This document shows positions 4,114-33,846 of a stretch of 35,392 nt of DNA, piece after piece. The stretch comes from Nitratifractor sp. GTDB taxonomy: Bacteria > Campylobacterota > Campylobacteria > Campylobacterales > Sulfurovaceae. The stretch spans positions 1 through 35,392 of the forward strand of contig WFSU01000010.1 in NCBI GenBank assembly GCA_015485845.1, given 5' to 3'. The notes under the pieces were generated by a model. It saw nothing but the letters and a program-made list of their open reading frames with translations, had not been told where the DNA came from and made no database searches. How positions within the stretch are numbered: the stretch's first letter is position 1; the number at the start of each line of letters is the position of its first letter. Both the position numbers and the translations under genes were made by a program.

Positions 4114-4463
4114 TATGAGCCCAGAGCAACGAGCCCATTTCAAAGCGATCATCGAAGTACAGGTTGCCGAACTCAGCGAAGAGATTGAGACGATCAAAGC
4201 GGCGATTTATCCCAACAAGGGGGGAGGCACCTCGGACAAAGTCGCCCATATCAGCTTCAAGCAGGAGCAGAATGTCCACTTTCAGCGGCATGCGGAAGCA
4301 ACCAAACGGCTCAACCGCCTCAAGCAGGCTTATCTCAAAGTCGATACGGCTGAGTATGGGGTGTGTCAGGAGTGCGAAGAGGCCATTCCGCTGGCGCGGC
4401 TGGAGCTGATGCCCGAGTCGCTCTATTGTGTGGCATGCATGAATGAAATGGGAAGGTGAGGCT
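4099..4463. repeat. direct repeat copy 1 (dksA/traR-like gene plus about 15 bp upstream)
   Basis: Aligns with 5777..6142 at an offset of 1679 bp. I counted by hand roughly 48 mismatches over the 345-nt CDS, many at third codon positions. The homology starts in the last codons of the upstream gene (GGAGCGATGA). Confidence 0.85.
4115..4459 (+). CDS. DksA/TraR-family C4 zinc-finger protein, copy 1
   Basis: 114 aa from ATG 4115, one nt after the PaaI stop. The 4040 start in the ORF track overlaps PaaI and was not used. C-terminal CQECEEAIPLARLELMPESLYCVAC is a CxxC-N17-CxxC zinc finger preceded by a coiled coil. Confidence 0.85.
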   Translation: MSPEQRAHFKAIIEVQVAELSEEIETIKAAIYPNKGGGTSDKVAHISFKQEQNVHFQRHAEATKRLNRLKQAYLKVDTAEYGVCQECEEAIPLARLELMPESLYCVACMNEMGR

Positions 4464-5530: not shown

Positions 5531-5792
5531 TGAGCCGTTTGACCAAAATCTCAAGAAAATAGTGAGATTTATCGCTATAGACAGCCAAAATAGGGCACGT
5601 GCCTTTCACATAAGTTTACGTAAAGGGTTGGAATCTCTGGATAATTTTCCTTTTAAATACCGACAATCTATTCATTATGATGACCCAAATATTCGGGACT
5701 TTATCTTCAAGGGTTATACCATTCCCTACCTCGTGGATGAACCGCAGGACAGGATCGTAGTTTTGGATATTTTCAAGTGGACGGAGCGATGA
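5514..5792 (+). CDS. ParE/RelE-family type II toxin
   Basis: 92 aa with the pattern FPFKYRQS...FIFKGYTIPYLVDEPQDRIVVLDIFKW typical of ParE/RelE. Operon partner of the Phd-like gene. Confidence 0.75.
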   Translation: MTVITDEPFDQNLKKIVRFIAIDSQNRARAFHISLRKGLESLDNFPFKYRQSIHYDDPNIRDFIFKGYTIPYLVDEPQDRIVVLDIFKWTER

Positions 5793-6142
5793 GATGACCC
5801 CAGCCCAACGAGTACATTTCAAAGAGATTATTGAAACGCAAGTTCCAGAACTCAGCGAAGAGATTGAGACAATCAAGGCGGCGATTTATCCTAACAAAGG
5901 GGAGGGTACTTCAGACAAAGTTGCCCACATCAGCTTCAAGCAGGAGCAGAATATCCACTTTCAGCGGCATGCCGAAGCGACTAAACGGCTCAATCGCCTG
6001 AAACAAGTTTATCTCAAAGTCGATACCGCAGAGTATGGGGTGTGTCAGGAGTGTGAAGAGGCCATTCCGCTGGCACGATTGGAGCTGATGCCTGAGTCGC
6101 TCTATTGTGTGGCGTGTCTGAATGAGAGAGGAGGGTGAAGCT
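5777..6142. repeat. direct repeat copy 2 (dksA/traR-like gene plus about 15 bp upstream)
   Basis: See copy 1. The last codons of the ParE-like gene (..TER*) lie inside the repeat. Confidence 0.85.
5794..6138 (+). CDS. DksA/TraR-family C4 zinc-finger protein, copy 2
   Basis: 114 aa, colinear with copy 1 and differing at about 13 residues. Same CxxC-N17-CxxC finger. Confidence 0.85.
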   Translation: MTPAQRVHFKEIIETQVPELSEEIETIKAAIYPNKGEGTSDKVAHISFKQEQNIHFQRHAEATKRLNRLKQVYLKVDTAEYGVCQECEEAIPLARLELMPESLYCVACLNERGG

Positions 6143-6770: not shown

Positions 6771-6826
6771 GTGTTACGTGTTACGTGTTACGTGTTACGT
6801 GTTACGTGTTACGTGTTACGTGTTAC
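6771..6826. repeat. perfect heptanucleotide tandem array (GTGTTAC)x8
   Basis: Eight uninterrupted units counted directly, followed by gtac. Lies between divergent genes, 21 nt from the MBL hydrolase ATG. The minus-strand unit GTAACAC carries TAA. Confidence 0.95.
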
Positions 6827-6875
6827 GTACTTATAATATACTTTGCTAAGGATAACATAACTTTTTGGAGGATAA

Positions 6876-6896
6876 ACTTCCTACTTCCTACTTCCT
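6876..6896. repeat. heptanucleotide tandem array (ACTTCCT)x3
   Basis: Three perfect units counted directly, in the same intergenic region. Confidence 0.9.
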
Positions 6897-6930
6897 GCTT
6901 AACACTTCCCACATAACACAAAACATACGC

Positions 6931-9866: not shown

Positions 9867-10134
9867 TTACCGCACCAAGTATATACCCAAACGTTTGAGA
9901 GAACGAGACGAGATGAGATGTGCGTGAAAAAATCTGAAGGACTGGCCGTAGTCAATTCAAAGGTTTTTTTGCGTGCAGGTCGTCTCGTATCGTTCTCCCC
10001 GAAGGGTGCAGCACTTTCGCTCACATACTGCGTTAGATTTTCTTGAATTCGCTTTGGCGAGTCCTGCGAAAATCTGCCTTGCCTGTGAACGAAAGTGCAG
10101 CATCAAACATTTGGGTATATACTTGGTGCGGTAA
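9867..10134. other. 268-bp element with 31-bp terminal inverted repeats and nested hairpins (MITE-like or structured leader)
   Basis: Left arm 9867-9897 is TTACCGCACCAAGTATATACCCAAACGTTTG. The right arm, 10104-10134, is its reverse complement with 1 mismatch. Inner imperfect inverted repeats lie at 9899-9910/9981-9997 and 10007-10024/10086-10103. No credible ORF. Confidence 0.6.
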
Positions 10135-11637: not shown

Positions 11638-12813
11638 ATGTCACGTAAACATGCCATCGTATTGGGCGTTGCCCTTGCCGTGTTTGTTGCCGGGATCTTC
11701 CTCTCGTTGATCCGCTCAAAAAGCGCACAAAACCCTGTGGGTGAAATCAAACATTTCACGGCGGAACATGAAAAAAAGAGCCTGGAAAAATCTCTACATT
11801 CCAGCAAAGCTTCTGCCGTTTCCTGTCAACGGGAACCGGCGAAACCTTCTTCCGCGCCGGGAAATACTGAAACGCCACCATCGGCGCAGGTTACTTCTGA
11901 CACCTCTCCTTCCGATAACCAGCCGATCGAGGCGCCGCTTCTCGAAGAGGGGGTTTTGATCACCCACCGAGTTGTTTCCGGTGAATCGCTGCTGGGATTG
12001 GCCAGGAAATACCGCACGACGGGATACCAGATAGCCAAGCGAAATATGATTCCTGAAGATGCCCGATTGTTTGTGGGGCAGGAACTGGAAATCATTCCAG
12101 GGGAAGAGGTAACCTATTGCGCTAGAAAAGGGGAGAGTCTCTCGGAAATCGCACAGCGTTTTGGAGCCGATCGTCAGGATATTGTCGCGCTTAATGATCT
12201 CGAAACCAATGCGACGCTCCAGTTGGGTCAGAAGTTGATCATGCCGGTCAGTCAAAAGAGGATCGATACGGTACTCGAAGAGATCGCCGAGAAAAAACGG
12301 CAAGTGGAGATGGAGAGGAAAAGTCAGTATCAGCGGAAATTTCTGACCCGACTGAAGCTCCAACAGAATGCTAGAGCCAAGCTGGCAAGGCTCCGTGCCG
12401 AGAAAGCGGCCAAAGCGCGAAAGCTGGCCCGAGCCAAACGGGAGAAGGAACGACGCCTCCGGAAAGCGAAACAAAAGTTTAAATATACATCATCGGCAAA
12501 ATATCAGCACAAAATGCGTGTCGTGGCGACTGCTTACACTTCTCACCGAAGCCAAACAGACCGTACCCCGTTTCTGGCGGCATGGAACAACCGCATCCGC
12601 CCGGGAATGAAGATCATCGCCGTTTCTCCCGATCTGATCCGGAAATACGGCCTCACCAACGGTGTCCGGGTCAAGATTGGTGGTTTACCTGGCACGTACG
12701 TCGTCCGGGATAAAATGAACAAACGCCTTCACGATCATATCGATATTTACATGGGGACTAATCGACGCCGGGCATTGCGGTGGGGGCGCAGGCGGGTGGT
12801 GATGTATTGGTGA
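11638..12813 (+). CDS. membrane-anchored peptidoglycan-binding protein, 2x LysM plus C-terminal 3D domain
   Basis: 391 aa with an N-terminal TM segment. Two LysM-like segments (HRVVSGESLLGLARKY..., YCARKGESLSEIAQRF...). K/R-rich coiled region. The C-terminus ATAYTS...IAVSPDLI...VRDKMNKRLHDHIDIYM fits a 3D domain. Confidence 0.8.
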   Translation: MSRKHAIVLGVALAVFVAGIFLSLIRSKSAQNPVGEIKHFTAEHEKKSLEKSLHSSKASAVSCQREPAKPSSAPGNTETPPSAQVTSDTSPSDNQPIEAPLLEEGVLITHRVVSGESLLGLARKYRTTGYQIAKRNMIPEDARLFVGQELEIIPGEEVTYCARKGESLSEIAQRFGADRQDIVALNDLETNATLQLGQKLIMPVSQKRIDTVLEEIAEKKRQVEMERKSQYQRKFLTRLKLQQNARAKLARLRAEKAAKARKLARAKREKERRLRKAKQKFKYTSSAKYQHKMRVVATAYTSHRSQTDRTPFLAAWNNRIRPGMKIIAVSPDLIRKYGLTNGVRVKIGGLPGTYVVRDKMNKRLHDHIDIYMGTNRRRALRWGRRRVVMYW

Positions 12814-12858
12814 GTGGTTGATGGTGATTGGTGATTCGTGATTCGTGATTCGTGATGG
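12810..12858. repeat. heptamer array, 7 units degenerating from GTGATTC
   Basis: Units are gtgagtg gttgatg gtgattg gtgattc gtgattc gtgattc gtgatgg. Every unit contains TGA. The LysM/3D gene stop (12811-12813) is inside unit 1. Confidence 0.85.
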
Positions 12859-12860
12859 GG

Positions 12861-12880
12861 ATGCGACTTTTGTCGCATTT
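12861..12880 (+). terminator. small hairpin ATGCGAC-TTTT-GTCGCAT (weak terminator candidate)
   Basis: 7-bp stem and 4-nt loop, followed only by a short T run. Sits between the heptamer array and the REP-like motif. Confidence 0.35.
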
Positions 12881-12881
12881 G

Positions 12882-12903
12882 GTGGGACTGAAGTCCCAGC
12901 CCC
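12882..12903 (+). repeat. REP-like 22-nt hairpin motif GTGGGACTGAAGTCCCAGCCCC
   Basis: Internal hairpin TGGGAC-TGAA-GTCCCA. The same motif recurs at 19516, 20112, 24943/25014, 28543/28588, 32410/32450 and, degenerate, 34210. Confidence 0.85.
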
Positions 12904-17920: not shown

Positions 17921-17947
17921 TACTTCAGACAAAACAAAAGGATTGTG

Positions 17948-18280
17948 ATGCAGGTGACATTAAATATCCCCAATGAACAACTTTCCGAAAAGATTCTTTG
18001 GTTTTTGGAACATTTCAAGAGTGAGGGACTGGAAATTATGAAGGGGAGAAAAGAAACGTCCTCCTCTACCCCAAAGCATAAAAAAGAGGGGCTTGATTTT
18101 TCATCGATTGATGTCCCGAGCTTTAGGGGAGTTGACGGGATGGAATATCAGAGAAATATTCGTGAAAAAATGGAGCACATTTTTAGCGAAAATTCCGTTC
18201 GTGCTTTCCAGAAGATAAAAGATCCTGTAGCATGGCAACGAAACTTACGTGACGAATGGGAACGCGATGATTCTGCTTGA
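17948..18280 (+). CDS. putative antitoxin of the PIN-toxin operon (family not recognised)
   Basis: 110 aa from ATG 17948. Overlaps the PIN gene start by 14 nt. Internal motif repeat EYQRNIREKME / AWQRNLRDEWE. Confidence 0.55.
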   Translation: MQVTLNIPNEQLSEKILWFLEHFKSEGLEIMKGRKETSSSTPKHKKEGLDFSSIDVPSFRGVDGMEYQRNIREKMEHIFSENSVRAFQKIKDPVAWQRNLRDEWERDDSA

Positions 18281-18629
18281 TAGTAACATTATTATCTACC
18301 TCTCCAAACGAAAACTCTCTGTAGCGGATGTATTTTCTCTGGATGCAACATATGCAGTCTCCATAGTAACATATATGGAAATTTTTTCTTATGTGTTTGC
18401 AGACAAGGCGGAAGAAAAGTTTCTCCGTGACATATTCTCGGTACTCAAGATAATTGATCTTAATCGGGAGATTGCTGAGCATGTTACTGTGATAAGAAAA
18501 CAAAGAAAACTCAAGTTGCCGGATTCTATTATTGTCGCGACGGCTATTGCTGAAGATGCTATGTTGCTGACCGGTGATAAGCAGTTGGCAACGATAGACG
18601 GTATTCGTACGCAACTGATAGCTGTCTGA
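18267..18629 (+). CDS. vapC: PIN-domain toxin (VapC-like)
   Basis: 120 aa from ATG 18267. The N-terminus MILLDSNIIIY carries the first acidic PIN residue. Later LTGDKQL. The 18249 start in the ORF track is less likely. Confidence 0.8.
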   Translation: MILLDSNIIIYLSKRKLSVADVFSLDATYAVSIVTYMEIFSYVFADKAEEKFLRDIFSVLKIIDLNREIAEHVTVIRKQRKLKLPDSIIVATAIAEDAMLLTGDKQLATIDGIRTQLIAV

Positions 18630-18632
18630 TTT

Positions 18633-19466
18633 ATGACCCTTACCCAAGCCCTCATCACCGCTCAACCTCAACTATCCAAAACTGTAGAGCGTCCCCGCCT
18701 CGAAGTGGAATTGCTATTGGCGTACTATCTCGGGGTAGATCGGATGTATCTGTTTACCCATGGGGATGAGGTGTTGGGTGATGCGGTTGGATATGAAGCC
18801 CTCGTGGCACGCCGAGCGAAGCATGAGCCGTTGGAGTACATTACCGGACGGGTGAGTTTCTACGATATTGAACTGTTCATCGCGCCGGGAGCCCTGATCC
18901 CCCGGCCGGAGACAGAAATACTGGTTGAGAAGACAGCAGACATTATTCGACAAAATAGGCTGAAGCAGATCGCGGAGATCGGGATCGGATCCGGGGCGGT
19001 GAGTATCGTACTTGCCCGGATGTTTCCACAGTTGCGCATTGTTGCTTCGGATATTTCTGAGGAGGCACTGGCCATTGCTCGGAAAAATATTAAAGCGTTT
19101 GGGCTGGCTGATCGCATTGCATTGCACCACACTTCCTTACTCGACGGGATAGAAGCACCCATCGAAATGATCGTCTCCAATCCCCCCTACATCGCCCGTG
19201 ATGTAGAGCTCGAACCCAACGTGCAGGACTTCGAGCCTCACACAGCACTGTTCGCAGACGGGGAGGGGGATGCTCTGCTGAAGAAGATTATCTCGCTCTC
19301 AGCCGAGCGGGGTGTATGGTATGTAGCGTGCGAAATGGGGTACGATCAGCGGGAGAGGATTTCAGCTTTTGTTAAAGAACTTGGGGTATATTCGGTGGAC
19401 TTTTATACCGATCTGGCCGGGCTCGATCGGGGGTTTGTCTTGGAAGAATTAGAAATTAGAAGGTAG
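18633..19466 (+). CDS. prmC: peptide chain release factor N5-glutamine methyltransferase
   Basis: 277 aa with IPRPETE, EIGIGSGAVS (SAM binding) and IVSNPPYI (NPPY). Confidence 0.9.
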   Translation: MTLTQALITAQPQLSKTVERPRLEVELLLAYYLGVDRMYLFTHGDEVLGDAVGYEALVARRAKHEPLEYITGRVSFYDIELFIAPGALIPRPETEILVEKTADIIRQNRLKQIAEIGIGSGAVSIVLARMFPQLRIVASDISEEALAIARKNIKAFGLADRIALHHTSLLDGIEAPIEMIVSNPPYIARDVELEPNVQDFEPHTALFADGEGDALLKKIISLSAERGVWYVACEMGYDQRERISAFVKELGVYSVDFYTDLAGLDRGFVLEELEIRR

Positions 19467-19477
19467 AAATTAGAAAT
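19443..19477. repeat. heptamer array, 5 units of TAGAAAT type
   Basis: Units are gaagaat tagaaat tagaagg tagaaat tagaaat. TAG occurs in all three frames. The prmC stop (19464-19466) is the TAG of unit 4, and the last 7 codons of prmC (EELEIRR) are array-encoded. Confidence 0.85.
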
Positions 19478-19539
19478 TTTGGTATGCTTTTCTGTCGAAA
19501 AGCTTTTATCAAAACGAGGCTGGGACTTCAGTCCCACAA
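19475..19539. repeat. 65-bp mosaic repeat copy 1 (AATTTTGG, terminator hairpin, REP-like motif)
   Basis: Aligns with 20072..20135 with a few mismatches and one 1-nt indel. Contains the REP-like motif at 19516-19537 in reverse orientation. Confidence 0.85.
19486..19507 (+). terminator. intrinsic terminator candidate GCTTTTC-TGTC-GAAAAGC-TTTTAT
   Basis: 7-bp stem followed by a T-rich tract, downstream of prmC. Confidence 0.5.
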
Positions 19540-19559
19540 CAATACTGAAAGGTTATAGT

Positions 19560-20039
19560 ATGAAAAAGAATTTTCGAATCGCAACAATGGTCTATTTGAT
19601 CTTCCTCGGGATGATGCTTGGAGCCGTCGTGTATGCCGGGGCGGTGGTGGCTCCGGTAATTTTCGGAAGTGAACAGTGGTTGGGGAGTGAGATCCTCAGT
19701 CGCTATCAGGAAGGGCAGATCATGACACAGAACTTTGTCCGACTCGGGTACGGTTTGACGGTGGTGATGCTTGCGGTGTTTCTCTACGAAGGGTACCGCT
19801 ATAAAATGGGGGAGCACGACAAAGTAGTCACTTCAGTGACGCTGATTGTTCTGGCGACGGCAGCGTTGTTCAATTACTATTACCTCCCCGATATTGTTTC
19901 GATGCAGTCGATGGGGGTTGAAGCAGTGCAAAGTGATGTTTTTGAAAGCCTTCACAAAGGAAGTGAGCTAGATGTCAAGGTGATGGCGGTAGCAATATTG
20001 GCGTTGATGGTACTGAATATGAGGAAAGCATGCAGATAG
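19560..20039 (+). CDS. small integral membrane protein (DUF4149/TMEM205-like)
   Basis: 159 aa from ATG 19560; the longer 19479 start would read through the repeat element. About four hydrophobic segments. Family call from overall pattern only. Confidence 0.5.
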   Translation: MKKNFRIATMVYLIFLGMMLGAVVYAGAVVAPVIFGSEQWLGSEILSRYQEGQIMTQNFVRLGYGLTVVMLAVFLYEGYRYKMGEHDKVVTSVTLIVLATAALFNYYYLPDIVSMQSMGVEAVQSDVFESLHKGSELDVKVMAVAILALMVLNMRKACR

Positions 20040-20044
20040 GTTAA

Positions 20045-20072
20045 GTGAGGAATTAGGAATTAGGAGTGAGGA
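20045..20072. repeat. heptamer array GTGAGGA ATTAGGA ATTAGGA GTGAGGA
   Basis: Four units, each with an AGGA core and a TGA or TAG, beginning 6 nt after the stop of the membrane protein gene. Confidence 0.85.
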
Positions 20073-20135
20073 ATTTTGGTATGCTTTTCTGTGAAAAGCT
20101 TTTATCAGAAAGGGGCTGGGACTTCAGTCCCACAA
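20072..20135. repeat. 65-bp mosaic repeat copy 2
   Basis: See 19475..19539. REP-like motif at 20112-20133. Confidence 0.85.
20083..20104 (+). terminator. intrinsic terminator candidate GCTTTTC-TGT-GAAAAGC-TTTTA
   Basis: 7-bp stem plus T tract, downstream of 19560..20039. Confidence 0.5.
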
Positions 20136-20166
20136 AAAGCGGAACGCTTAATGCGCAGAAGGAGAA

Positions 20167-20673
20167 ATGATGGATGATTCGCGTCAGATGCACCCGTTTG
20201 AACCGATTGTATTCTCCGATACCCGGACGTTGATTCTGGGGTCGTTTCCGAGCATTCAGTCGGTGGCAAATAATTTTTATTATGCCCACCCGCGCAATCA
20301 ATTCTGGCCGATTTTGTCGGCCATTACCGGATATCCGGTGGGGAATCGGGATCAGAAGATCTGGCTGCTCAAGGAGATGAAGCTTGGGGTGTGGGATATG
20401 ATCGCGGCGTGTGTGCGGGACAACTCACTGGACAGTTCGCTGGAGGATGAGGTGGTCAATGATCTGCCCGCACTCCTCGAGCGGTATCCTTCCATCGAAC
20501 GGGTGGCGTTTACCGGGCGCAAAGCGGAGGCGCTTTGGAAGACGCATTTTGATTACCTGGGAGTGGAGACACATTATCTTCCGTCTCCCTCTCCAGCTTA
20601 CGCGGCTATGCGTTTGGAGGAAAAAGCAGCGAGGTGGCAGGATATCCTCGGACTGGATCGGGGGATCGGCTGA
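20167..20673 (+). CDS. uracil-DNA glycosylase superfamily protein, hypoxanthine/deoxyinosine DNA glycosylase-like
   Basis: 168 aa with LILGSFPS and YYAHPRNQFW, which I recall as signatures of the HDG/UDG family 6 group. Confidence 0.6.
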   Translation: MMDDSRQMHPFEPIVFSDTRTLILGSFPSIQSVANNFYYAHPRNQFWPILSAITGYPVGNRDQKIWLLKEMKLGVWDMIAACVRDNSLDSSLEDEVVNDLPALLERYPSIERVAFTGRKAEALWKTHFDYLGVETHYLPSPSPAYAAMRLEEKAARWQDILGLDRGIG

Positions 20674-23625: not shown

Positions 23626-24906
23626 ATGATGTCCAAAATTATTGACCATTTCAAGGTACTGATAAAGATACCGCACTGCTCACAGGATGCTGAGGCGTTG
23701 TTTCTCTACCTGAGAGATTTTGCCTCCGAGCATGGCTACACGGTACAGATCGATGACGCAGGAAACATTCTTGCATCGAAGGGTAAGCCCGAAATATGCC
23801 TTCAGGCGCATTACGACATGGTCTGTATGGGCAGTGCACCTCAGATTGAGACGGAAGAGCGTGAGGGGTGGCTTCATGCCGTGGATGCTTCTCTGGGCGC
23901 GGACAACGGTATCGGGATTGCGATGATGATGGTGTTGATGGAGGAAGGGGTAGCGGCGGAATTTTTATTTACCGCTGATGAAGAGGTCGGATTGATCGGT
24001 GCTAATGCGCTGGATTTCAAACTCCTATCCTCCCGCATGCTCAATCTCGACAGCGAAGATGAAGCCGAAGTCTACATCGGCTGTGCCGGAGGGGCGGATA
24101 TCATCGGAGAAGTGTTTGATGAGCAGGTTCCCGGACATGGAGCATGCTATGAAGTGTCTGTGCGGGGGCTTCCCGGTGGGCATTCGGGTGTCGATATCGA
24201 CAAAAATATCCCCTCGGCGATTACACTTTTGGCAGAATACTTGCACAAAGAGGGGGTGGATCAGCTCTCTACCATTATCGCCGGTGAACGGCGCAACGCC
24301 ATTCCGTCCAATGCCGTAGCGATCGTCCGAAGCGATACTCCTCTGACTGGACGAGGGGTCGTGACGGTACGGCCACTAAAGGAATCCCCTGATGTTTATC
24401 GTGCCGGCAAAGAGATACTCGACTACCTCTACCGCTTCAAGCAAGGGGTACGGTCAATGAATATGCAGCTTGGTATTCCCCAGACCAGCGTCAATCTGGC
24501 CATGGTCAATGACACGTATTCTCCGCGAGGTCTCACGATTGAGATCAGTGCCCGTGCGATGAGTATGGAGGATTTGGAGATACTGATTTCCGAGACCGTG
24601 GCCGAGATGGAGATGTCAGGGTTTGCTGTACGCGTCGAAGATAAATACCCAGCTTGGAAACCGGAAGAGAATTCTTTTACCCGGGAGGTTGCCGTAGCGA
24701 TGGATGCGGAATTTGGTACCGCGAAAACTGTAGCGATCCACGCCGGCCTCGAGTGTGGCGTACTGAGCCAGAAATACCCGCAGATTCAGTTTGCCTCCAT
24801 CGGCCCAACGATCCGTTACCCCCATTCGACACGGGAGTGCGTCGATCTTGCATCAGTGGAGCAGACGTTTCGGGTGGTGGAAAAAATAGTGAGGAATCAG
24901 GAGTGA
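23626..24906 (+). CDS. PepD-like M20C dipeptidase (aminoacyl-histidine dipeptidase family)
   Basis: 426 aa. The start may be the second ATG at 23629. Motifs LQAHYDMV, GADNGIG, TADEEVGLIGA and LNLDSEDEAEVYIGCAGG. Confidence 0.75.
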   Translation: MMSKIIDHFKVLIKIPHCSQDAEALFLYLRDFASEHGYTVQIDDAGNILASKGKPEICLQAHYDMVCMGSAPQIETEEREGWLHAVDASLGADNGIGIAMMMVLMEEGVAAEFLFTADEEVGLIGANALDFKLLSSRMLNLDSEDEAEVYIGCAGGADIIGEVFDEQVPGHGACYEVSVRGLPGGHSGVDIDKNIPSAITLLAEYLHKEGVDQLSTIIAGERRNAIPSNAVAIVRSDTPLTGRGVVTVRPLKESPDVYRAGKEILDYLYRFKQGVRSMNMQLGIPQTSVNLAMVNDTYSPRGLTIEISARAMSMEDLEILISETVAEMEMSGFAVRVEDKYPAWKPEENSFTREVAVAMDAEFGTAKTVAIHAGLECGVLSQKYPQIQFASIGPTIRYPHSTRECVDLASVEQTFRVVEKIVRNQE

Positions 24907-24916
24907 GGAGTGAGGA
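24889..24916. repeat. heptamer array GTGAGGA ATCAGGA GTGAGGA GTGAGGA
   Basis: Four units. The PepD-like gene stop (24904-24906) is the TGA of unit 3. Followed by ATTTTG, as at 20073. Confidence 0.85.
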
Positions 24917-24942
24917 ATTTTGAGAGCAAGAAAATTTTATTA

Positions 24943-25035
24943 GGGGCTTGGACTTCAATCCAACAAACGCGATAGCGTATCTCATTAGGTATGGATAGCA
25001 TTTTGGTTATTCTGTGGGACTGAAGTCCCAGCCCC
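24943..25035. repeat. REP-like inverted doublet (variant arm 24943-24964, consensus arm 25014-25035)
   Basis: GGGGCTTGGACTTCAATCCAAC, then a 49-nt spacer, then GTGGGACTGAAGTCCCAGCCCC. Lies between the convergent pepD-like and nth genes. Confidence 0.8.
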
Positions 25036-28542: not shown

Positions 28543-28609
28543 GGGGCTGGGACTTTAGTCCCACTAAAAGCGTAAGCGTAACTTCTTGTGGGACTAAAGT
28601 CCCAGCCCC
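28543..28609. repeat. perfect REP-like inverted doublet (22-bp arms, 23-nt spacer); likely bidirectional terminator
   Basis: GGGGCTGGGACTTTAGTCCCAC at 28543-28564 is the exact reverse complement of GTGGGACTAAAGTCCCAGCCCC at 28588-28609. Lies between convergent fba and nrdB. Confidence 0.85.
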
Positions 28610-29631: not shown

Positions 29632-29718
29632 GGTGTTTCTCCTGAAATAAGTGCATCATTTTACCCGATTCTGATGTAAGTCAAGCTAAAATTTCCTGTA
29701 ATAAAAAGGTAACATTTG

Positions 29719-30624
29719 ATGCAAAAAACTTCCCTTGCTTTGCCCAGCCCTGTCGAGCAGATTGTTGTTGATGATTCCCCTTTTTATCTCAAACACGATG
29801 AGCGGATTCACCCCGACTTTTCGGGGAATAAAGCCCGGAAATTTCATTATTTTCTCACCCATGACTTCCCGGAAATTCGCCGGGTTGTCTCCTATGGGTC
29901 GCCGCAGTCCAATGCGATGTACTCCCTTTCGGTGCTGGCACGGATGCGGGGGTGGGTGTTTGATTATTATGTCGATCACGTCGCCGGATACCTGCGGGAA
30001 AACCCACACGGCAACTACGCCCGTGCCCTGGCCAACGGCATGCAGATCCACACGACACCCCGCCCCCAGATCCTCCTGCCCGACACGCTCCTGATCCACG
30101 AAGGGGGACGACAGGTCGAAGCGGAGTACGGTGTTGCGATCTTGGCGCAAGAGATAGCAGATTGGCAACACGAGCAGGGGATCGAGCATCTCGATATCTT
30201 CTTCCCTTCCGGCACAGGTACCACCGCCCTGTATCTCCAAAAAACCCTATCAACCATCCACCATCCACCATCCACCGTATATACCACTCCGTGCGTAGGC
30301 GATGCCGAATACCTCCGCAAACAGTTTACTATCCTCGAGCCTGACCCACACCTGTGGCCGATGATCCTCGATTTGCCACACAAATACCACTTTGGCAAAC
30401 TCTACCGGGAGTTTTACGAAATTTGGATAGAATTACACCAACAAACCGGCGTGACATTTGATCTCCTCTACGACCCAAAAGGGTGGCTGACGCTCCTGAA
30501 GCATCGCGACCAAATGGGTCAGCATCTTCTCTACCTCCATCAGGGGGGATTGCAGGGAAATGAGAGCATGCTCAAGCGTTATGAGCGTAGATTTTCGCAC
30601 GCCTACAAGGATAAAACGAAATGA
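29719..30624 (+). CDS. PLP-dependent enzyme of the ACC deaminase/D-cysteine desulfhydrase family
   Basis: 301 aa from ATG 29719. SGNKARKF resembles the PLP-lysine motif of this family. Stop overlaps the hisD start. Confidence 0.6.
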   Translation: MQKTSLALPSPVEQIVVDDSPFYLKHDERIHPDFSGNKARKFHYFLTHDFPEIRRVVSYGSPQSNAMYSLSVLARMRGWVFDYYVDHVAGYLRENPHGNYARALANGMQIHTTPRPQILLPDTLLIHEGGRQVEAEYGVAILAQEIADWQHEQGIEHLDIFFPSGTGTTALYLQKTLSTIHHPPSTVYTTPCVGDAEYLRKQFTILEPDPHLWPMILDLPHKYHFGKLYREFYEIWIELHQQTGVTFDLLYDPKGWLTLLKHRDQMGQHLLYLHQGGLQGNESMLKRYERRFSHAYKDKTK

Positions 30625-32261
30625 AAACATTTAGCACGACCGATGCAGACTTCCAAGTCAACTTTGATGAACTTCTTGCCCGGGGAGCGATGGATATAGA
30701 AGGGGTCAGCACGATCGTAAACGATCTGCTCAAAGAGATACGCACCGGCGGCAACGCAGCACTGCGAGAACAAATCGCCCGGTTTGACCGCTGGAGTCCC
30801 CAGAGTGATGACGAGCTTAAAGTCCGCTCGGAGGAGATGAAGGCTGCCTACGAAGCGATCGATCCCAAGCTCCGGGATGCCCTCCAGCTGGCGTACGACC
30901 GTATCCGCGACTACCACGAGAAACTCATGCCCAGGACATGGATGGAGACGGATGCCACCGGCAGCGTACTGGGGCAAAAAGTCACCCCCGTCGATCGTGC
31001 CGGCCTCTACATCCCCGGGGGCAAAGCCGCCTATCCCAGCAGTCTCCTGATGAATGTCATCCCCGCCCAGGTGGCCGGAGTCGGGGAGATCGTCGTCTGC
31101 ACCCCCGCACCGGACAATGAGCTCAACGAACTTCTCCTGGCTGCCTGTCACCTTTGCGGGGTTGAGAATGTCTTCCGTGTCGGCGGAGCCTCGGCGATCG
31201 GGGCGATGGCATACGGCACCGAGACGATCCCCAAAGTAGATGTCATCACAGGGCCGGGCAATATTTTCGTCGCCACCGCCAAAAAACTGGTCTACGGCGA
31301 GGTCAACATCGACATGATCGCCGGCCCGAGTGAGATCGGCGTATTGGCGGATCGTTCCGCTCCGGCTGATCTGCTGGCGATGGATCTCCTTTCTCAGGCA
31401 GAGCACGACGAGATGGCCAGTTCGATCCTCATCACCGACGATGCCGATCTGGCGGCCTCAGTCGCCCAAGAGATCGAAGGCTTCCTCGGTACCCTCTCGC
31501 GAGAGACCATCGCCCGCACATCAATCGCGGAACGCGGAGCGATCATCATCGCCCGCGACATGGACGAAGCGGTCGATCTGATGAACCAGATTGCCCCTGA
31601 GCACCTCGAGGTGGTCACTGAAGATCCCATGAGTCTGCTCCCCTCCATCCGGCATGCTGGAGCAATCTTCCTCGGCCGCAATACCCCAGAGCCCATCGGC
31701 GACTACATCGCCGGCCCCAACCACACACTGCCTACCGGCGGTACAGCACGGTTTTATTCGCCTCTGAGCGTAGAACATTTCCTCAAAAAGTCCTCCATCA
31801 TCTCTATGAGTGAAGCGGGGATCAACGCCATCGGCGAAGAGTGCGCCATGATCGCCCACACCGAGGGGCTTACCGCCCACGAAGCCTCGGTGCGGATGCG
31901 CCTGAAAAAAGAGCACGAAGGTTCCGAGCACGACAAGCGCTTCAAAGGTCTTGATGGTGACGATGATCTCCTCTCTAAGCTTGGCATCGACCTCAATGGT
32001 GAAAAGATCAACATCGACCTGGGGAAAACCAAAGGCTTTTTTGATGCGGTTGGTGAGAAGCTTGCTTCCAAAGCCGAAAAACTTCAGAACGACATCGCAA
32101 GCGGCTCAGTCGATCTGGGCGAAAACGTCGGGGTCAAAGTGGACAAAGAGCAGATCAATATTGACCTTGGAAAAACCAGAAGCTTCATTGATGATCTGGG
32201 AAAAAAGATTGCGGGGTTTGTCGATCAGATTGATGATGTGGTTAAGGACATCAAGAAGTAG
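30621..32261 (+). CDS. hisD: histidinol dehydrogenase with about 114-aa C-terminal repeat-containing extension
   Basis: 546 aa. The HisD core runs to about residue 432 (...LTAHEASVRMRLKK), with QAEHDE and the GDY..GPNH..PT motifs. In-frame tail with two repeats EKINIDLGKTKGFFDAVGEKLA / EQINIDLGKTRSFIDDLGKKIA (32001-32066, 32148-32213). Confidence 0.9.
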   Translation: MKTFSTTDADFQVNFDELLARGAMDIEGVSTIVNDLLKEIRTGGNAALREQIARFDRWSPQSDDELKVRSEEMKAAYEAIDPKLRDALQLAYDRIRDYHEKLMPRTWMETDATGSVLGQKVTPVDRAGLYIPGGKAAYPSSLLMNVIPAQVAGVGEIVVCTPAPDNELNELLLAACHLCGVENVFRVGGASAIGAMAYGTETIPKVDVITGPGNIFVATAKKLVYGEVNIDMIAGPSEIGVLADRSAPADLLAMDLLSQAEHDEMASSILITDDADLAASVAQEIEGFLGTLSRETIARTSIAERGAIIIARDMDEAVDLMNQIAPEHLEVVTEDPMSLLPSIRHAGAIFLGRNTPEPIGDYIAGPNHTLPTGGTARFYSPLSVEHFLKKSSIISMSEAGINAIGEECAMIAHTEGLTAHEASVRMRLKKEHEGSEHDKRFKGLDGDDDLLSKLGIDLNGEKINIDLGKTKGFFDAVGEKLASKAEKLQNDIASGSVDLGENVGVKVDKEQINIDLGKTRSFIDDLGKKIAGFVDQIDDVVKDIKK

Positions 32262-32364: not shown

Positions 32365-32393
32365 GCATTCCCACGCAGGAGCGTGGGAACGAG
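32365..32393. repeat. second hairpin-repeat class, forward copy (GCATTCCCACGC-AGGA-GCGTGGGAACGAG)
   Basis: 9-bp stem TTCCCACGC/GCGTGGGAA. The flanks GCATTCCCAC and GTGGGAACGAG are shared with the inverted copy at 32273-32300. Confidence 0.75.
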
Positions 32394-32409: not shown

Positions 32410-32471
32410 GGGGCTTGGGCTTCAGCCCAACCAAACGCAAAGCGTATCTGTGGGACTGAAGTCCCAGCCCC
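32410..32471. repeat. REP-like inverted doublet (variant arm 32410-32431, consensus arm 32450-32471)
   Basis: GGGGCTTGGGCTTCAGCCCAAC, then an 18-nt spacer, then GTGGGACTGAAGTCCCAGCCCC. The variant arm keeps a perfect 6-bp hairpin through two compensated pair changes. Confidence 0.8.
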
Positions 32472-32565: not shown

Positions 32566-33846
32566 ATGCCAGCCACCAATACCATCGCGTGCCCAAAATG
32601 CGGCACTCAAATTGACATTGACGCGATCTTTTATCATCAGGTAGAGGAGAAATTCAAACACCAACAAATTGAGGAGCGGCGCAAGCTTCAGGCTGAGATC
32701 GACGGAGCGCGTGCTCAGTACAAAAACCACCTCGATAGCCTCAAGAAAAAAGAAGAAGCCCTTGCCACCGAAAAAGAGCACTTTGATGAGGCGTTGCGCA
32801 AAGCGACCCGGGAGCAGCTGCGCAAAGATCGGGAGCAGATGGCGCAGGAGCTCAAGCAACAGCTTGCCGAGGAGCAGAGTGCTGCGATGGCGGCCCTCCA
32901 GAAAGAGCTTGAGGAGAAATCGGGCAAACTTCAGGAGCTTCACGCGGCTACTGCTCGTATCGCTCGACTTGAGCGCGAAAAGGCCGAAGCATCTGCCCGC
33001 GCCAAAGCCGAAGCGGAGCTGGAGCTCAACAAACGGCTGGCTGAAGAGAAGCAGAAGCTTCAAAAAGCGATCGATGACGAAACTGCCCTCAAACTCAAAG
33101 AGAAAGACGAGCAGCTCGAGCAGCTCAAGCGCAGTCTTGAAGATGCTAAACGCAAAGCCGATCAGGGGAGCATGCAAATACAGGGTGAAGCGTTGGAGCT
33201 GGCGATCGAGAGCTGGCTGGCATCGCAGTTTCCGTTTGATACCATCGAAGAGGTCAAAAAAGGAGCCTTCGGTGCTGACTGCATTCAGACGGTCCATACC
33301 CGTGAGCTCCCCAACTGCGGTATTATCTGCTATGAGTCCAAGAACACCAAAGCATGGTCGGATAGCTGGATCACCAAGCTCAAGCAGGACATGCTCAAGG
33401 TAGGCGCCGACATCGGGGTACTTGTCACGTCGGTCTATCCGAGCGGCATGGAGCGGATGGGGTTTGTCGATGGGATCTGGGTGTGCAGTCTCGACGAGTT
33501 CAAAGGCTCAGCCGCCTTGCTGCGTGATGGGCTTATCCGGGTGCACAAAAGCATCCAGCGCGAAGAGAACCGCGGAGACAAGATGGCGCTGCTCTACTCG
33601 TATCTGACCGGCAACGAATTTGGGATGCAGATGCGCGCGATCGTGGATGGCTTCATGGCGATGCAGGCCGAGCTGGACAAAGAACGCCGCTCCCTCATGG
33701 CATCCTGGAAACGCCGTCAGAAGATCATCGACGGCGTACTGACCAACACCACCGAAATGTACGGAGCCTTCCAGGGGATCGCCGGAGCCGGAGCGTTGAC
33801 CCATATCGAGGCGCTGGAGCTGCCGGAGAGTTTTGAGGAGGAATAG
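32566..33846 (+). CDS. DUF2130-family protein: N-terminal CxxC, long coiled coil, C-terminal PD-(D/E)xK-like nuclease domain
   Basis: 426 aa from the second ATG, which has better spacing to the AGGA RBS; the ORF track starts at 32560. IACPKCG, then about 200 aa of E/K/Q/A-rich heptad-like sequence. C-terminus GEALELAIE...GADCIQTV...IICYESKNTKAWSDSWITKLKQD...MYG..QGIAG matches my recollection of DUF2130. Confidence 0.8.
   Translation: MPATNTIACPKCGTQIDIDAIFYHQVEEKFKHQQIEERRKLQAEIDGARAQYKNHLDSLKKKEEALATEKEHFDEALRKATREQLRKDREQMAQELKQQLAEEQSAAMAALQKELEEKSGKLQELHAATARIARLEREKAEASARAKAEAELELNKRLAEEKQKLQKAIDDETALKLKEKDEQLEQLKRSLEDAKRKADQGSMQIQGEALELAIESWLASQFPFDTIEEVKKGAFGADCIQTVHTRELPNCGIICYESKNTKAWSDSWITKLKQDMLKVGADIGVLVTSVYPSGMERMGFVDGIWVCSLDEFKGSAALLRDGLIRVHKSIQREENRGDKMALLYSYLTGNEFGMQMRAIVDGFMAMQAELDKERRSLMASWKRRQKIIDGVLTNTTEMYGAFQGIAGAGALTHIEALELPESFEEE
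33797..33832. repeat. 36-bp direct repeat, copy 1 (inside the 3' end of the DUF2130 gene)
   Basis: TGACCCATATCGAGGCGCTGGAGCTGCCGGAGAGTT is identical to 35299-35334. The match extends to 44 bp with 2 mismatches (33789 / 35291). Confidence 0.95.

What the first reader, a model, noticed from the sequence alone, without database searches (positions are those of the whole stretch)
19443..20135. Small membrane-protein gene bracketed by two copies of a mosaic element (heptamer array, terminator hairpin, REP-like hairpin)
Seen: 19475-19539 and 20072-20135 are direct repeats of about 65 bp with a few mismatches and one indel. Each consists of AATTTTGG, a GCTTTTC/GAAAAGC hairpin with a T tract, and the REP-like motif GGCTGGGACTTCAGTCCCAC. 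Each is preceded by a different 7-nt tandem array (TAGAAAT type at 19443-19477, GTGAGGA/ATTAGGA at 20045-20072). The only gene between them is the 159-aa DUF4149-like ORF. The array-hairpin-REP order recurs at 12810-12903 and 24889-25035. The array units carry TAG or TGA. Three of the four host genes (prmC, the LysM/3D gene and the pepD-like gene) terminate on a stop inside the array, and the last 7 codons of prmC (EELEIRR) are array-encoded. Inference: this is a mobile or recombinogenic mosaic element that inserts at or into gene 3' ends and brings its own stop codons and terminator. The direct copies could mediate loss or duplication of the enclosed gene.
Basis: partly seen in the sequence, partly recalled or inferred. 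Interest (0 to 1): 0.7.

Follow-up and report, generated by a model that had tools for sequence, protein, structure and literature searches.

The report
Heptamer array, hairpin and REP cassettes
The two repeats around this small membrane-protein gene are ordinary members of a genome-wide family of gene-end cassettes (a 7-base microsatellite, a conserved hairpin and a REP element) in a Nitratifractor-like bacterium; they are not a transposon carrying the gene, though the cassette itself appears to be undescribed.

Summary
19475-19539 and 20072-20135 are 94% identical, each preceded by a heptamer array. Between them lies one DUF4149 gene.

It is not a gene-carrying bracket. prmC-DUF4149-UDG synteny holds in six genomes, including a Sulfurovum with no repeats. 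The two copies resemble each other no more than they resemble copies at unrelated loci.

Three separable layers make up each repeat:
- **Heptamer microsatellite.** It is C-free on the strand reading into the hairpin and varies between species. It often supplies the stop codon and last codons of the upstream gene.
- **Conserved hairpin.** TGGTATGC, a 7-bp stem and a T tract: 56 copies found, with compensatory stem variants, mostly co-oriented with the upstream gene. Copies are kept at orthologous sites as far as N. salsuginis.
- **REP hairpin.** It occurs at 76 or more loci in related genomes, one of which also encodes a REP-associated tyrosine transposase.

My best reading is a terminator or attenuator cassette that REPs have settled beside; function is inferred, not shown. 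The "mobile mosaic that brings its own stop" idea is partly supported: PrmC and M20 tails are array-encoded, but the LysM stop is ancestral.

Novelty: a new variant of known kinds.

The parts
18633..19466 (+). prmC (release-factor glutamine methyltransferase). The last 7 codons and the TAG stop lie in array A.
   Evidence: Pfam PrmC_N + MTS. C-terminal comparison of six orthologues.
19447..19478 (+). Heptamer array A (AATTAGA/AGGTAGA, 4.6 units, C-free).
   Evidence: TRF; sequence. The same unit type is at the orthologous site in L004.
19471..19517 (+). Hairpin module A: TTTTGGTAT, stem GCTTTTC (19486-19492), loop TGTC, stem GAAAAGC (19497-19503), then TTTTATCAAAA.
   Evidence: Covariance model R1, 52.4 bits, E = 5e-10. 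Terminator-like scan. RNA fold -10.3 kcal/mol, z = -4.2.
19516..19537 (+). REP hairpin A (GAGGCTGGGACTTCAGTCCCAC).
19560..20039 (+). DUF4149/TMEM205-like membrane protein gene. It is ancestral at this position.
   Evidence: Pfam PF13664. 146 homologues. Synteny in L001, L002, L004, L081 and L082.
20048..20075 (+). Heptamer array B (GTGAGGA/ATTAGGA, 4 units, C-free). It begins about 6 nt after the native TAG stop.
   Evidence: TRF.
20068..20113 (+). Hairpin module B: TTTTGGTAT, stem GCTTTTC (20083-20089), loop TGT, stem GAAAAGC (20093-20099), then TTTTATCAGAAA.
   Evidence: R1, 68.1 bits, E = 1e-13.
20112..20133 (+). REP hairpin B (GGGGCTGGGACTTCAGTCCCAC), followed by the small hairpin AAGCGGAACGCTT (20137-20149).
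12806..12856 (+). Heptamer array (ATTGGTG/GTGATTC x7.3) that starts in the native ..TAT TGG TGA end of the LysM gene.
12857..12903 (.). REP doublet: GGGGATGCGACTTTTGTCGCAT plus GTGGGACTGAAGTCCCAGCCCC.
24888..24916 (+). Heptamer array (AGTGAGG x4.1) holding the TGA stop of the M20 peptidase gene.
24912..24945 (+). Decayed remnant of the hairpin module. N. salsuginis has an intact copy at the orthologous site.
   Evidence: R1 E = 0.82 here, against 43.7 bits at L081:13452-13497.
24943..25035 (.). Inverted REP doublet (REPIN-like), 49-nt spacer.
28543..28609 (.). Inverted REP doublet (REPIN-like), 23-nt spacer, between the convergent fba and nrdB-like genes.
32410..32471 (.). Inverted REP doublet (REPIN-like), 18-nt spacer.

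Best explanation
The two repeats are independent members of a lineage-wide family of gene-end or intercistronic cassettes in Nitratifractor-like Campylobacterota. They do not bound a mobile unit that carries the DUF4149 gene. Each cassette has three layers with different dynamics.

1. **Heptamer microsatellite.** It has almost no C on the strand that reads 5'->3' into the hairpin. It expands, contracts and changes unit type between related species, most likely by slippage (inferred). It abuts or overlaps the end of the upstream ORF and carries TAG or TGA. Because 7 is not a multiple of 3, three or more units put a stop in every frame. The array therefore sets the stop and the last few codons of some genes.

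2. **Conserved hairpin.** The form is (A/G)TTT-TGGTATGC, a 7-bp stem, a 3-4 nt loop, the return stem, then TTTTAT. Pairing is kept by compensatory changes. The hairpin is mostly co-oriented with the upstream gene and is retained at orthologous sites across the genus. I infer that on the transcript it acts as a weak intrinsic terminator, attenuator or 3'-end stabiliser inside what was ancestrally a tight prmC-DUF4149-UDG operon.

3. **REP hairpin.** It belongs to a REP/REPIN family served by a REP-associated tyrosine transposase encoded elsewhere in a related genome. It has accumulated next to the hairpin. One stem subtype plus this REP recurs as a fixed 60-65-nt unit at many loci.

**Shown:** family membership, dispersion, hairpin covariation, orientation bias, orthologous retention, array-encoded C-termini, and the presence of a RAYT.

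**Inferred:** termination or attenuation, slippage as the source of the arrays, and RAYT-driven spread.
For: **Organism and synteny**
- The DUF4149 protein is 64% identical to that of N. salsuginis.
- prmC-DUF4149-UDG is conserved in L001, L002/L003, L004, N. salsuginis L081 and Sulfurovum L082. In Sulfurovum the gaps are only 15 and 7 nt and hold no repeats.

**Family membership**
- 56 hairpin modules were found in about 0.5 Mb.
- A against B is 93.7% identical; A or B against copies elsewhere reaches 94%.
- The covariance model finds 2 copies in 20 kb of N. salsuginis, 1 in L004 and 0 in Sulfurovum.

**Hairpin**
- The inner helix is 99% paired, and 3 of 7 pairs show double changes: U-A/G-C/A-U at pair 3 and G-C/U-A at pair 6.
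- The orthologous prmC copy in L004 has GCATTGC/GCAATGC in place of GCTTTTC/GAAAAGC.
- The core folds at z = -4.2 and -3.5.

**Position and orientation**
- 41 of 54 modules are co-oriented with the upstream gene, and only 1 sits in a divergent region.
- 35 of 56 have an ORF stop 4-47 nt upstream.

**Arrays**
- 151 of 363 tandem arrays have period 7.
- On the sense strand, 3'-end arrays are 3% C.
- 73 of 78 arrays within 45 nt of a hairpin are G>C on the strand reading toward it.
- Stops fall in all three frames in 40 of 72 arrays, against 22% for shuffled arrays.
- Unit number and type differ between orthologous sites.

**C-termini**
- After the conserved core GLDRGF(V/T/L)(L/I), the PrmC tails are EF*, ND*, ELEIKN*, EELEIRR* and VRSER*.
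- L001 has too few array units to give an in-frame stop. Its PrmC reads on for 36 aa, through the hairpin and the first REP.

**REP and RAYT**
- The REP was found at 76 or more loci, with inverted doublets in the window.
- The L019 RAYT passes NF047646. Its HUH and Tyr motifs align to 4ER8, and a REP lies 85 nt upstream.
- Stem subtype GCTTTTC is associated with this REP subtype (14 of 21, p = 0.004).
Against: - No transcript data exist, so termination or attenuation is inferred only from hairpin shape and orientation.
- The hairpin is weak (-9 to -10 kcal/mol, AU-rich), and the whole 106-125-nt regions do not fold better than shuffles (z about -1).
- About a quarter of modules between tandem genes lie antisense to both neighbours (9 cases; the neighbouring genes of several were confirmed by Pfam). 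A terminator role does not explain this.
- Conservation of the unpaired flanks (TGGTATGC, TTTTAT) across the genus suggests recognition by an unknown factor, or ongoing homogenisation. My model does not account for this.
- Most loci were collected through the REP motif, so the REP association and copy densities are biased upward.
- Paralogous copies are not independent events, so the covariation counts overstate the number of compensatory events.
Confidence: 0.68

Rival explanations
1. Array + hairpin + REP is one mobile mosaic element that inserts into gene 3' ends and brings its own stop codons and terminator.
For: - The junctions are stereotyped: the array ends in (A/G)TTT-TGGTATGC in nearly all 56 copies.
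- The 60-65-nt hairpin + REP unit recurs at many loci at 83-100% identity.
- Stem and REP subtypes are associated (p = 0.004).
- Both orientations relative to genes occur.
- Whole intergenic blocks are present or absent between species: the window has 5 nt between the Metallophos and APH genes where L001 and L002 have about 170-350 nt of array + REP.
- A RAYT is present.
- PrmC and M20 tails are array-encoded.
Against: - Array type is not linked to stem type (p = 0.17).
- Arrays exist without the hairpin or REP, and at gene 5' ends.
- Array unit type switches at an orthologous site while the hairpin is kept.
- Cassettes sit at the same sites in genomes as far apart as N. salsuginis, and some are decaying in place.
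- The LysM stop is ancestral.
- I found no target duplications or precise empty sites.
- Known RAYT substrates are REP/REPIN hairpins, not arrays (PMC3116915, PMC3479197).
Confidence: 0.22
2. The arrays have no function. They are a neutral by-product of polymerase slippage where replication or repair stalls at stable hairpins, and the stop codons and C-free composition are incidental.
For: - Period 7 holds across at least 58 unrelated unit sequences.
- The arrays point into hairpins from either side (73 of 78).
- Units turn over quickly between species.
- The LysM array looks seeded from the gene's own ATTGGTGA end.
- Heptamers are the commonest long simple repeats in many bacteria, and a 7-nt polymerase contact has been proposed to explain this (Mrazek 2007, as summarised in PMC4679880).
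Against: - Slippage alone does not explain 3% C on one strand.
- It does not explain the recurrence of the same few unit families (ATTAGGA/GTGAGGA, GTGAATA) at many loci and in N. salsuginis.
- It does not explain the 2.5-fold excess of three-frame stops over composition-matched shuffles.
- 64 of the 143 period-7 arrays are not within 45 nt of a detected hairpin.
Confidence: 0.3
3. The two direct repeats arose by local duplication and delimit a cassette that moves, deletes or duplicates the DUF4149 gene.
For: Two copies at 94% identity in direct orientation lie 597 nt apart, with identical runs of 15-22 nt. In L001 the two flanks also share the array type.
Against: - The gene is in the same place in six genomes, including one without repeats.
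- A and B are no more alike than non-neighbouring family members.
- L002/L003 have a completely different upstream flank but keep the gene.
- No deletion junction was found, although that search was uninformative.
Confidence: 0.03
4. The conserved hairpin with its flanks acts at the DNA level, independent of orientation. It could be a binding site for a nucleoid, uptake or recombination protein rather than an RNA terminator.
For: The unpaired flanks TGGTATGC and TTTTAT are 90-100% conserved across species. About 25% of copies between tandem genes are antisense. E. coli BIMEs bind IHF and gyrase (from general knowledge).
Against: - There is a strong co-orientation bias (41 to 13) and avoidance of divergent regions.
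- The possible outer helix relies on G-U pairs that exist only on the sense transcript (36 of 45 at one pair).
- Copy density is far below that of known uptake sequences.
Confidence: 0.1

Closest known systems
REP / REPIN elements with RAYT (E. coli BIMEs, Pseudomonas REPINs; PMC3116915, PMC3337134, PMC3479197, PMC3733652)
   Same: - A 20-22-nt imperfect palindrome in dozens to hundreds of extragenic copies.
- It occurs as singlets and as inverted doublets with short spacers.
- Sub-families have covarying stems.
- A single-domain HUH/Tyr transposase gene of the RAYT type lies next to a REP in a related genome.
- The elements sit at gene ends and sometimes give the stop codon to the flanking ORF, as reported for GTAG REPs in PMC3733652.
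   Different: - The host is a Campylobacterota lineage (Nitratifractor), which the REP survey I searched by keyword (PMC3733652) does not mention.
- The main family carries GTGG rather than the canonical GTAG tag; a sister sub-family has GTAG.
- It is regularly joined to a non-REP hairpin and to heptamer arrays, which is not part of the REP/BIME description.
Heptanucleotide simple-sequence repeats of bacteria: cyanobacterial STRR, Xanthomonas/Nostoc GGGNATC, Beggiatoaceae TAACTGA (PMC4692102, PMC4679880)
   Same: - Short tandem arrays of 7-nt units, 2-10 copies or more, strongly over-represented in intergenic DNA close to ORF ends.
- Strand-specific composition.
- TAACTGA also carries stop triplets.
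- Copy number varies between relatives.
- Function is unknown.
   Different: - Here there are many unrelated units (58 or more) rather than one or a few.
- The arrays are nearly C-free and not G-quadruplex-type.
- They are polar with respect to an adjacent hairpin.
- They are fused to a conserved hairpin module.
- They frequently overlap the stop codon, so they encode variable C-terminal tails.
Intrinsic (Rho-independent) terminators and intercistronic REP stabilisers
   Same: A short perfect stem, a 3-4-nt loop and an immediately following T tract, co-oriented with the upstream gene and avoiding divergent promoter regions.
   Different: - The stem is AU-rich and weak.
- The sequence outside the stem is conserved among paralogues and across species, unlike ordinary terminators.
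- A quarter of copies between tandem genes are antisense.
- There are no expression data.
Mosaic MITE-like repeats that carry regulatory signals (Neisseria Correia elements, enterobacterial ERIC, pneumococcal BOX/RUP)
   Same: Dispersed, modular intergenic repeats that can be co-transcribed and can contribute terminators or processing sites.
   Different: No terminal inverted repeats or target duplications were seen. The modules here assort semi-independently and are retained at orthologous sites for long periods.

Membership tests
REP/REPIN-RAYT system | Short imperfect palindrome present in many extragenic copies per genome | tested here: met
   8 copies in the 35-kb window against 0 in shuffles. 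194 REP-type hits in 0.5 Mb.
REP/REPIN-RAYT system | Occurrence as inverted doublets (REPINs) able to form a long hairpin | tested here: met
   Doublets at 24943/25014, 28543/28588 and 32410/32450, and many in the loci. The two copies flanking DUF4149 are singlets.
REP/REPIN-RAYT system | A RAYT gene (HUH + Tyr, IS200-like fold) in the same genome, flanked by the cognate REP | tested here: inconclusive
   - There is no RAYT in the window.
- In a related MAG (86.8% nt identity), L019:1391-2158 passes NCBIfam NF047646 (81.5 bits, cut-off 80) and Pfam Y1_Tnp (5e-17). Its HUH and Tyr motifs align to 4ER8.
- The REP lies 85 nt upstream on one side only.
- A second RAYT-like gene in L055 is flanked by a different REPIN family.
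REP/REPIN-RAYT system | Conserved GTAG (or CGTC) tetranucleotide at the foot of the hairpin | tested here: inconclusive
   The main family reads GTGG-GAC...GTC-CCAGCCCC. The sister sub-family GGAGTAGGGAC... has GTAG. Criterion taken from PMC3733652.
REP/REPIN-RAYT system | Cleavage or mobilisation of REP by the RAYT | not testable with these tools
   This needs in vitro ssDNA cleavage assays or mobilome sequencing.
Intrinsic terminator | Stable stem-loop directly followed by a U tract on the transcript of the upstream gene | tested here: met
   7-bp stems at 19486-19503 and 20083-20099 followed by TTTTAT. The cores fold at -10.3 and -9.0 kcal/mol, z = -4.2 and -3.5. 41 of 54 copies are co-oriented.
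Intrinsic terminator | Transcripts end at the U tract | not testable with these tools
   No RNA data are available. The gaps between the cassettes and the next start codons (about 20-35 nt) leave little room for a promoter, which argues for partial termination at most.
Heptanucleotide SSR / STRR-like arrays | Tandem head-to-tail 7-nt units, over-represented and mainly intergenic | tested here: met
   7 arrays in the window against 0.7 expected. 151 of 363 arrays have period 7. There are 10 or more in 20 kb of N. salsuginis and none convincing in Sulfurovum.
Composite transposon / gene cassette bounded by direct repeats | The enclosed gene is variably present or found at other loci together with the repeats | tested here: not met
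   The gene and its synteny are conserved in six genomes, with or without the repeats.
MITE | Terminal inverted repeats and target-site duplication around a unit of fixed length | tested here: not met
   No TIR or TSD was seen at the cassette borders. The left border is a variable array, and the right border varies with the REP type.

The most novel reading that the evidence does not exclude
Nitratifractor-like bacteria may have a dedicated 'portable gene-end' system. In it, a sequence-specific hairpin (TGGTATGC-stem-TTTTAT) is recognised by an unknown factor. C-free heptamer arrays are actively generated or maintained on the strand running into it. These arrays would act as frame-independent translational stops that also diversify protein C-termini. 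If so, this is a tractable, culturable model (N. salsuginis DSM 16511) for the long-unexplained heptamer repeats of bacteria such as STRR and TAACTGA.
Probability: 0.15. Interest if true: 0.7.

Novelty: new variant of a known kind. Interest (0 to 1): 0.48.

Why it matters
The finding removes a false lead. The DUF4149 gene is not on a mobile cassette, and the bracket comes from two adjacent gene junctions each carrying a common cassette.

What remains has three uses:
- It extends REP/RAYT biology to a hydrothermal-vent Campylobacterota lineage.
- It documents a stereotyped coupling of heptamer microsatellites to a conserved hairpin, with a strict strand polarity (73 of 78). No library or paper search here returned a description of this coupling.
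- It shows that these arrays rewrite the C-terminal residues and stop positions of housekeeping genes between closely related species. That matters for annotation, for orthologue comparison and for assembly: the repeat broke one public scaffold.

A cultured, fully sequenced relative carries the same cassettes, so the function can be tested directly.

Tried and rejected
- **Exact-protein look-up of the window's DUF4149 protein:** not on record. I used homologues instead.
- **Rfam:** at gathering scores on the whole window it found only a tRNA. With permissive E-values on 19300-20300 it found nothing.
- **Metagenome scan for a prmC-cassette-UDG deletion junction:** 0 hits. The follow-up control pattern (prmC end + TTGGTATGC) gave only 2 unrelated chance matches. 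That collection apparently lacks this lineage, so the test is uninformative.
- **Viral-contig scan for the hairpin module:** 0 hits. The REP is found in one IMG/VR contig only.
- **Outer helix (TTTTGGTA/TATCAAAA) around the hairpin:** 83% paired but almost no double changes, so it is not established.
- **CsrA-sponge or Shine-Dalgarno-like reading of the AGGA-rich arrays:** rejected as a general explanation, because other common units (GTGAATA, TTAGAAA) lack GGA.
- **A sigma-70 promoter inside the module:** not called by the scan.
- **7-bp target-site duplication footprints as the source of the arrays:** considered and dropped. IS200/RAYT-type elements make no duplications, and no element ends were seen.
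- **My RAYT and IS200 probe sequences:** The calls rest on Pfam, NCBIfam and PDB.
- **Gene calls for the census:** these were a crude longest-ORF heuristic, so distances and orientation counts are approximate.
Full report

Yes. The sequence shows prmC ending ...GGG TTT GTC TTG GAA GAA TTA GAA ATT AGA AGG TAG inside a period-7 array (TRF 19447-19478).

After the array come four elements in order:
- AATTTTGGTAT
- the hairpin GCTTTTC-tgtc-GAAAAGC
- TTTTATCAAAACGA
- GGCTGGGACTTCAGTCCCAC (19518-19537)

After the 159-aa DUF4149 ORF (19560-20039; Pfam PF13664) the same order recurs:
- array 20048-20075
- hairpin 20083-20099
- REP 20114-20133

The repeat finder pairs the two stretches (families D12 and D14). 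A global alignment gives 93.7% identity. The 18-mer AATTTTGGTATGCTTTTC occurs only at these two places in the window. The REP 20-mer has 8 matches at up to 3 mismatches, against 0 in shuffles. The window holds seven period-7 arrays, against 0.7 expected.

- At 12806-12903 the hairpin is itself a REP-type hairpin of a doublet, and the main REP is inverted.
- At 24888-25035 the hairpin module is only a remnant.

**2. Whose genome, and is the gene native?**

The DUF4149 protein has 146 homologues. The closest named ones are from Nitratifractor, and N. salsuginis is 64% identical.

I fetched contigs encoding close and distant homologues: L001, L002/L003, L004, N. salsuginis L081 and Sulfurovum L082. 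All show the same prmC-DUF4149-UDG order. In Sulfurovum the two junctions are 15 and 7 nt long and carry no repeats.

The window shares 89.9% nucleotide identity with L001 and 86.8% with L002. These are related species, not strains. The gene is therefore ancestral at this position, and the repeats were added to an old, tight gene string.

**3. The REP layer**

Almost all lie in three MAGs of this clade.

Reading the contexts shows a REP super-family that shares the loop TTCA/TGAA, with covarying stems:
- GGGAC/GTCCC
- GCGAC/GTCGC
- TTGGAC/GTCCAA
- CAGGAC/GTCCTG
- GGGGC/GCCCC

Members occur as singlets, tight doublets and inverted doublets. The window has inverted doublets at 24943/25014, 28543/28588 and 32410/32450.

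Probing all ORFs of the loci nominated L019:1391-2158. Several results support it as a RAYT:
- It has a Pfam Y1_Tnp domain (5e-17).
- It passes the NCBIfam equivalog 'REP-associated tyrosine transposase' (81.5 bits against 80).
- Its only PDB relative is E. coli TnpArep 4ER8, with the HUH and Tyr motifs aligned.
- A REP lies 85 nt upstream of its start.

A second RAYT-like gene in L055 is flanked by a different REPIN family. That second family occupies the prmC-DUF4149 spacer in L002/L003. This layer is a regular REP/REPIN-RAYT system (PMC3116915, PMC3479197).

**4. The hairpin layer**

Searching for TGGTATGC followed by a stem-loop gave 56 convincing copies. They are very stereotyped:
- (A/G)TTT-TGGTATGC
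- a 7-bp stem
- a 3-4-nt loop
- the return stem
- TTTTAT/TTTTGT

The stems come as:
- GCTTTTC/GAAAAGC (21 copies)
- GCGTTGC/GCAACGC (17 copies)
- GCATTGC/GCAATGC
- GCTTTGC/GCAAAGC
- GTTTTGC/GCAAAAC

On an ungapped alignment of 45 copies the inner helix is 99% paired, with double changes at three pairs. A possible outer helix is not supported by covariation.

The prmC copy in L004 is orthologous and has the GCATTGC/GCAATGC stem. A covariance model built from the alignment gave the following:
- two full copies in the window, both flanking DUF4149
- a remnant at 24912-24945
- one copy in L004
- two copies in 20 kb of N. salsuginis
- none in Sulfurovum

The N. salsuginis copy at the M20 peptidase 3' end is orthologous to the window's remnant. 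The cassettes are therefore old and vertically kept, and some are decaying in place. Rfam has no matching family.

Position and orientation:
- 41 of 54 modules are co-oriented with the gene on their 5' side.
- 9 lie antisense between tandem genes; I checked the neighbouring genes of several of these with Pfam.
- Only 1 lies in a divergent region.
- 35 of 56 have an ORF stop 4-47 nt upstream.

**5. The array layer**

Across 515 kb, 151 of 363 tandem arrays have period 7, with at least 58 different units. ATTAGGA/GTGAGGA and GTGAATA are the commonest. N. salsuginis has ten or more arrays in 20 kb, including at the prmC and DUF4149 3' ends (GATTGAA and GGTAGAG units). Sulfurovum has none that convince.

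Of 143 arrays:
- 42 overlap an ORF stop.
- 30 lie within 80 nt after a stop.
- 34 lie only near a start.

Composition and polarity:
- On the sense strand the 3'-end arrays are 3% C.
- The 5'-proximal arrays are mostly the reverse complements of the same units.
- 73 of 78 arrays within 45 nt of a REP or module hairpin are G>C on the strand reading toward that hairpin, whichever side they lie on.
- 40 of 72 arrays have stops in all three frames, against 22% for composition-matched shuffles and 20 of 72 on the antisense strand.

Arrays change fast:
- The LysM array has two more units in the window than in L001.
- The M20 array has more than 12 units in L002.
- At one orthologous site the units are ATTAGGA in L017 and GTGAATA in L025, while the hairpin and REP are identical.

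**6. Do the arrays bring the stop codon?**

For some genes they do.

| Gene | Conserved core or end | What follows |
|---|---|---|
| PrmC | core ends GLDRGF(V/T/L)(L/I) | EF* (Sulfurovum), ND* (N. salsuginis), ELEIKN* (L004), EELEIRR* (window), VRSER* (L002) |
| PrmC in L001 | same core | only two array units and no in-frame stop, so 36 further residues read through the hairpin and the first REP |
| M20 peptidase | conserved core | tails vary in the same way |
| LysM protein | ends ..MYW* or a near variant in every genome, including those without an array | the array looks seeded from the native ATTGGTGA, so the stop is ancestral |
| DUF4149 | native stop | the stop precedes the array |

**7. 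One element or three layers?**

Evidence for linkage:
- The hairpin subtype GCTTTTC goes with the GGGGCTGGGAC REP (14 of 21, p = 0.004). This test is biased, because the loci were collected through that REP.
- The 60-65-nt hairpin + REP unit recurs at a dozen or more loci.

Evidence against a single unit:
- Array type is independent of stem type (p = 0.17).
- Arrays occur alone.
- The hairpin occurs with any of several REP types or with none.
- The layers evolve at different rates.

Whole intergenic blocks can also be lost. The window has 5 nt between the Metallophos and APH genes where L001, L002 and L004 have arrays and a REP.

**8. How it most likely works**

What is shown is listed above. 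What follows is inferred.

- The hairpin plus T tract is a weak intrinsic terminator, attenuator or 3' stabiliser placed inside a former operon. The cores fold at -9 to -10 kcal/mol with z = -3.5 to -4.2, while the larger regions are unremarkable.
- The array upstream of it grows and shrinks by slippage. Its C-free, stop-rich units release ribosomes before the hairpin in whatever frame they arrive. This limits the damage from unit changes, which are not multiples of three.
- REPs, moved by the RAYT, accumulate in this tolerated niche.

Two features remain unexplained. About 25% of copies between tandem genes are antisense, and the unpaired flanks are conserved across the genus. Both leave room for a sequence-specific factor or for continuing homogenisation.

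**9. Comparison with what is known**

- **REP/BIME/REPIN-RAYT:** the same kind for layer 3.
- **Heptamer SSRs** (STRR, GGGNATC, TAACTGA; PMC4692102, PMC4679880): the same kind for layer 1. Here, though, there are many units, a strict polarity and fusion to a hairpin.
- **REP termini giving stop codons to ORFs:** already reported (PMC3733652).

The N. salsuginis genome paper does not mention these repeats. My literature searches found no description of the cassette.

**10. Verdict**

- **Observation:** confirmed.
- **Interpretation:** partly supported. The family is dispersed, the tails of some genes are array-encoded, and a RAYT is present. It is not one mosaic transposon, the gene is not a bracketed cassette, and one of the three cited stops is ancestral.
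- **Novelty:** a new variant of known kinds.
- **Interest:** moderate.

Noticed in passing
window 30249-30276: A heptamer array (ATCCACC x4) lies inside the 302-aa ORF 29716-30624. That ORF has no Pfam family and only a faint ACC-deaminase-like hit. Gain or loss of one unit would frameshift the gene, so phase variation is possible.
   Followed up: no
window 30621-32261: The histidinol dehydrogenase ORF is 546 aa, but the Pfam domain ends at residue 428. The last 118 aa match no family in Pfam or NCBIfam.
   Followed up: partly
window 6771-6925: A perfect (GTGTTAC)x8.3 array and an ACTTCCT/ACATAAC array face each other in the divergent region between the metallo-beta-lactamase-fold gene (minus strand) and the DUF455 gene. 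The arrays are therefore not restricted to 3' ends.
   Followed up: partly
window 4104-4403 and 5783-6082: A 300-nt direct repeat (86% identical) corresponds to two DksA/TraR-type zinc-finger paralogues about 1.7 kb apart. A Phd/YefM antitoxin gene lies between them.
   Followed up: partly
window 17945-18629; L001 6311-6896; L004 8486-9095; L082 8644-9155: The slot between the M48 peptidase gene and prmC holds a different toxin-antitoxin-like pair in each genome: PIN in the window and L001, PemK in L004, ParE in Sulfurovum. It looks like an insertion hot spot.
   Followed up: no
window 33789-33832 and 35291-35334: A 44-nt direct repeat (95% identical) brackets the UPF0175/DUF3368 gene pair downstream of the DUF2130 gene. 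This suggests the pair was inserted with duplication of the DUF2130 3' end.
   Followed up: no
window 32366-32393; also L026, L028, L057: Another recurrent hairpin, CATTCCCACGCAGGAGCGTGGGAACGAG, sits just upstream of REPs at several loci.
   Followed up: no
L055 3040-3840; L002 1395-1470: A second REPIN family (CCGGAAGTGGAGACTTCAGTCCCACC ... GGTGAGGCTGAAGCCTTCACTTCC) flanks its own RAYT-like gene in L055. It replaces the hairpin + REP upstream of DUF4149 in L002/L003.
   Followed up: partly
L019 1324-1346 and 2161-2183; L065 2078-2100; L070 1991-2013: The RAYT gene in L019 is flanked by a perfect 23-bp inverted repeat (GGTGGATATTCAACGTCTGACCC). Solo copies occur at two other loci.
   Followed up: partly
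L086 10646-10720 and 11978-12046 (IMGVR_UViG_2654587899_000001): In a predicted viral or prophage contig the same REP occurs as 36-nt tandem direct pairs just upstream of genes. Heptamer arrays are also present (for example ATGTAGG x7.9).
   Followed up: partly
L002 2090-2190: The public scaffold has a run of N flanked by duplicated copies of cassette B. This is an assembly or scaffolding artefact caused by the repeat.
   Followed up: no
L073 vs L044: A contig binned as Flavobacteriaceae (WGDF01000361.1) is 98% identical to a Nitratifractor MAG contig and carries the REP. It is probably mis-binned.
   Followed up: no
window 9867-9898 and 10103-10134: A 32-nt inverted repeat (97% complementary) encloses 204 nt upstream of thrC. 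A related sequence lies at 230-252.
   Followed up: no
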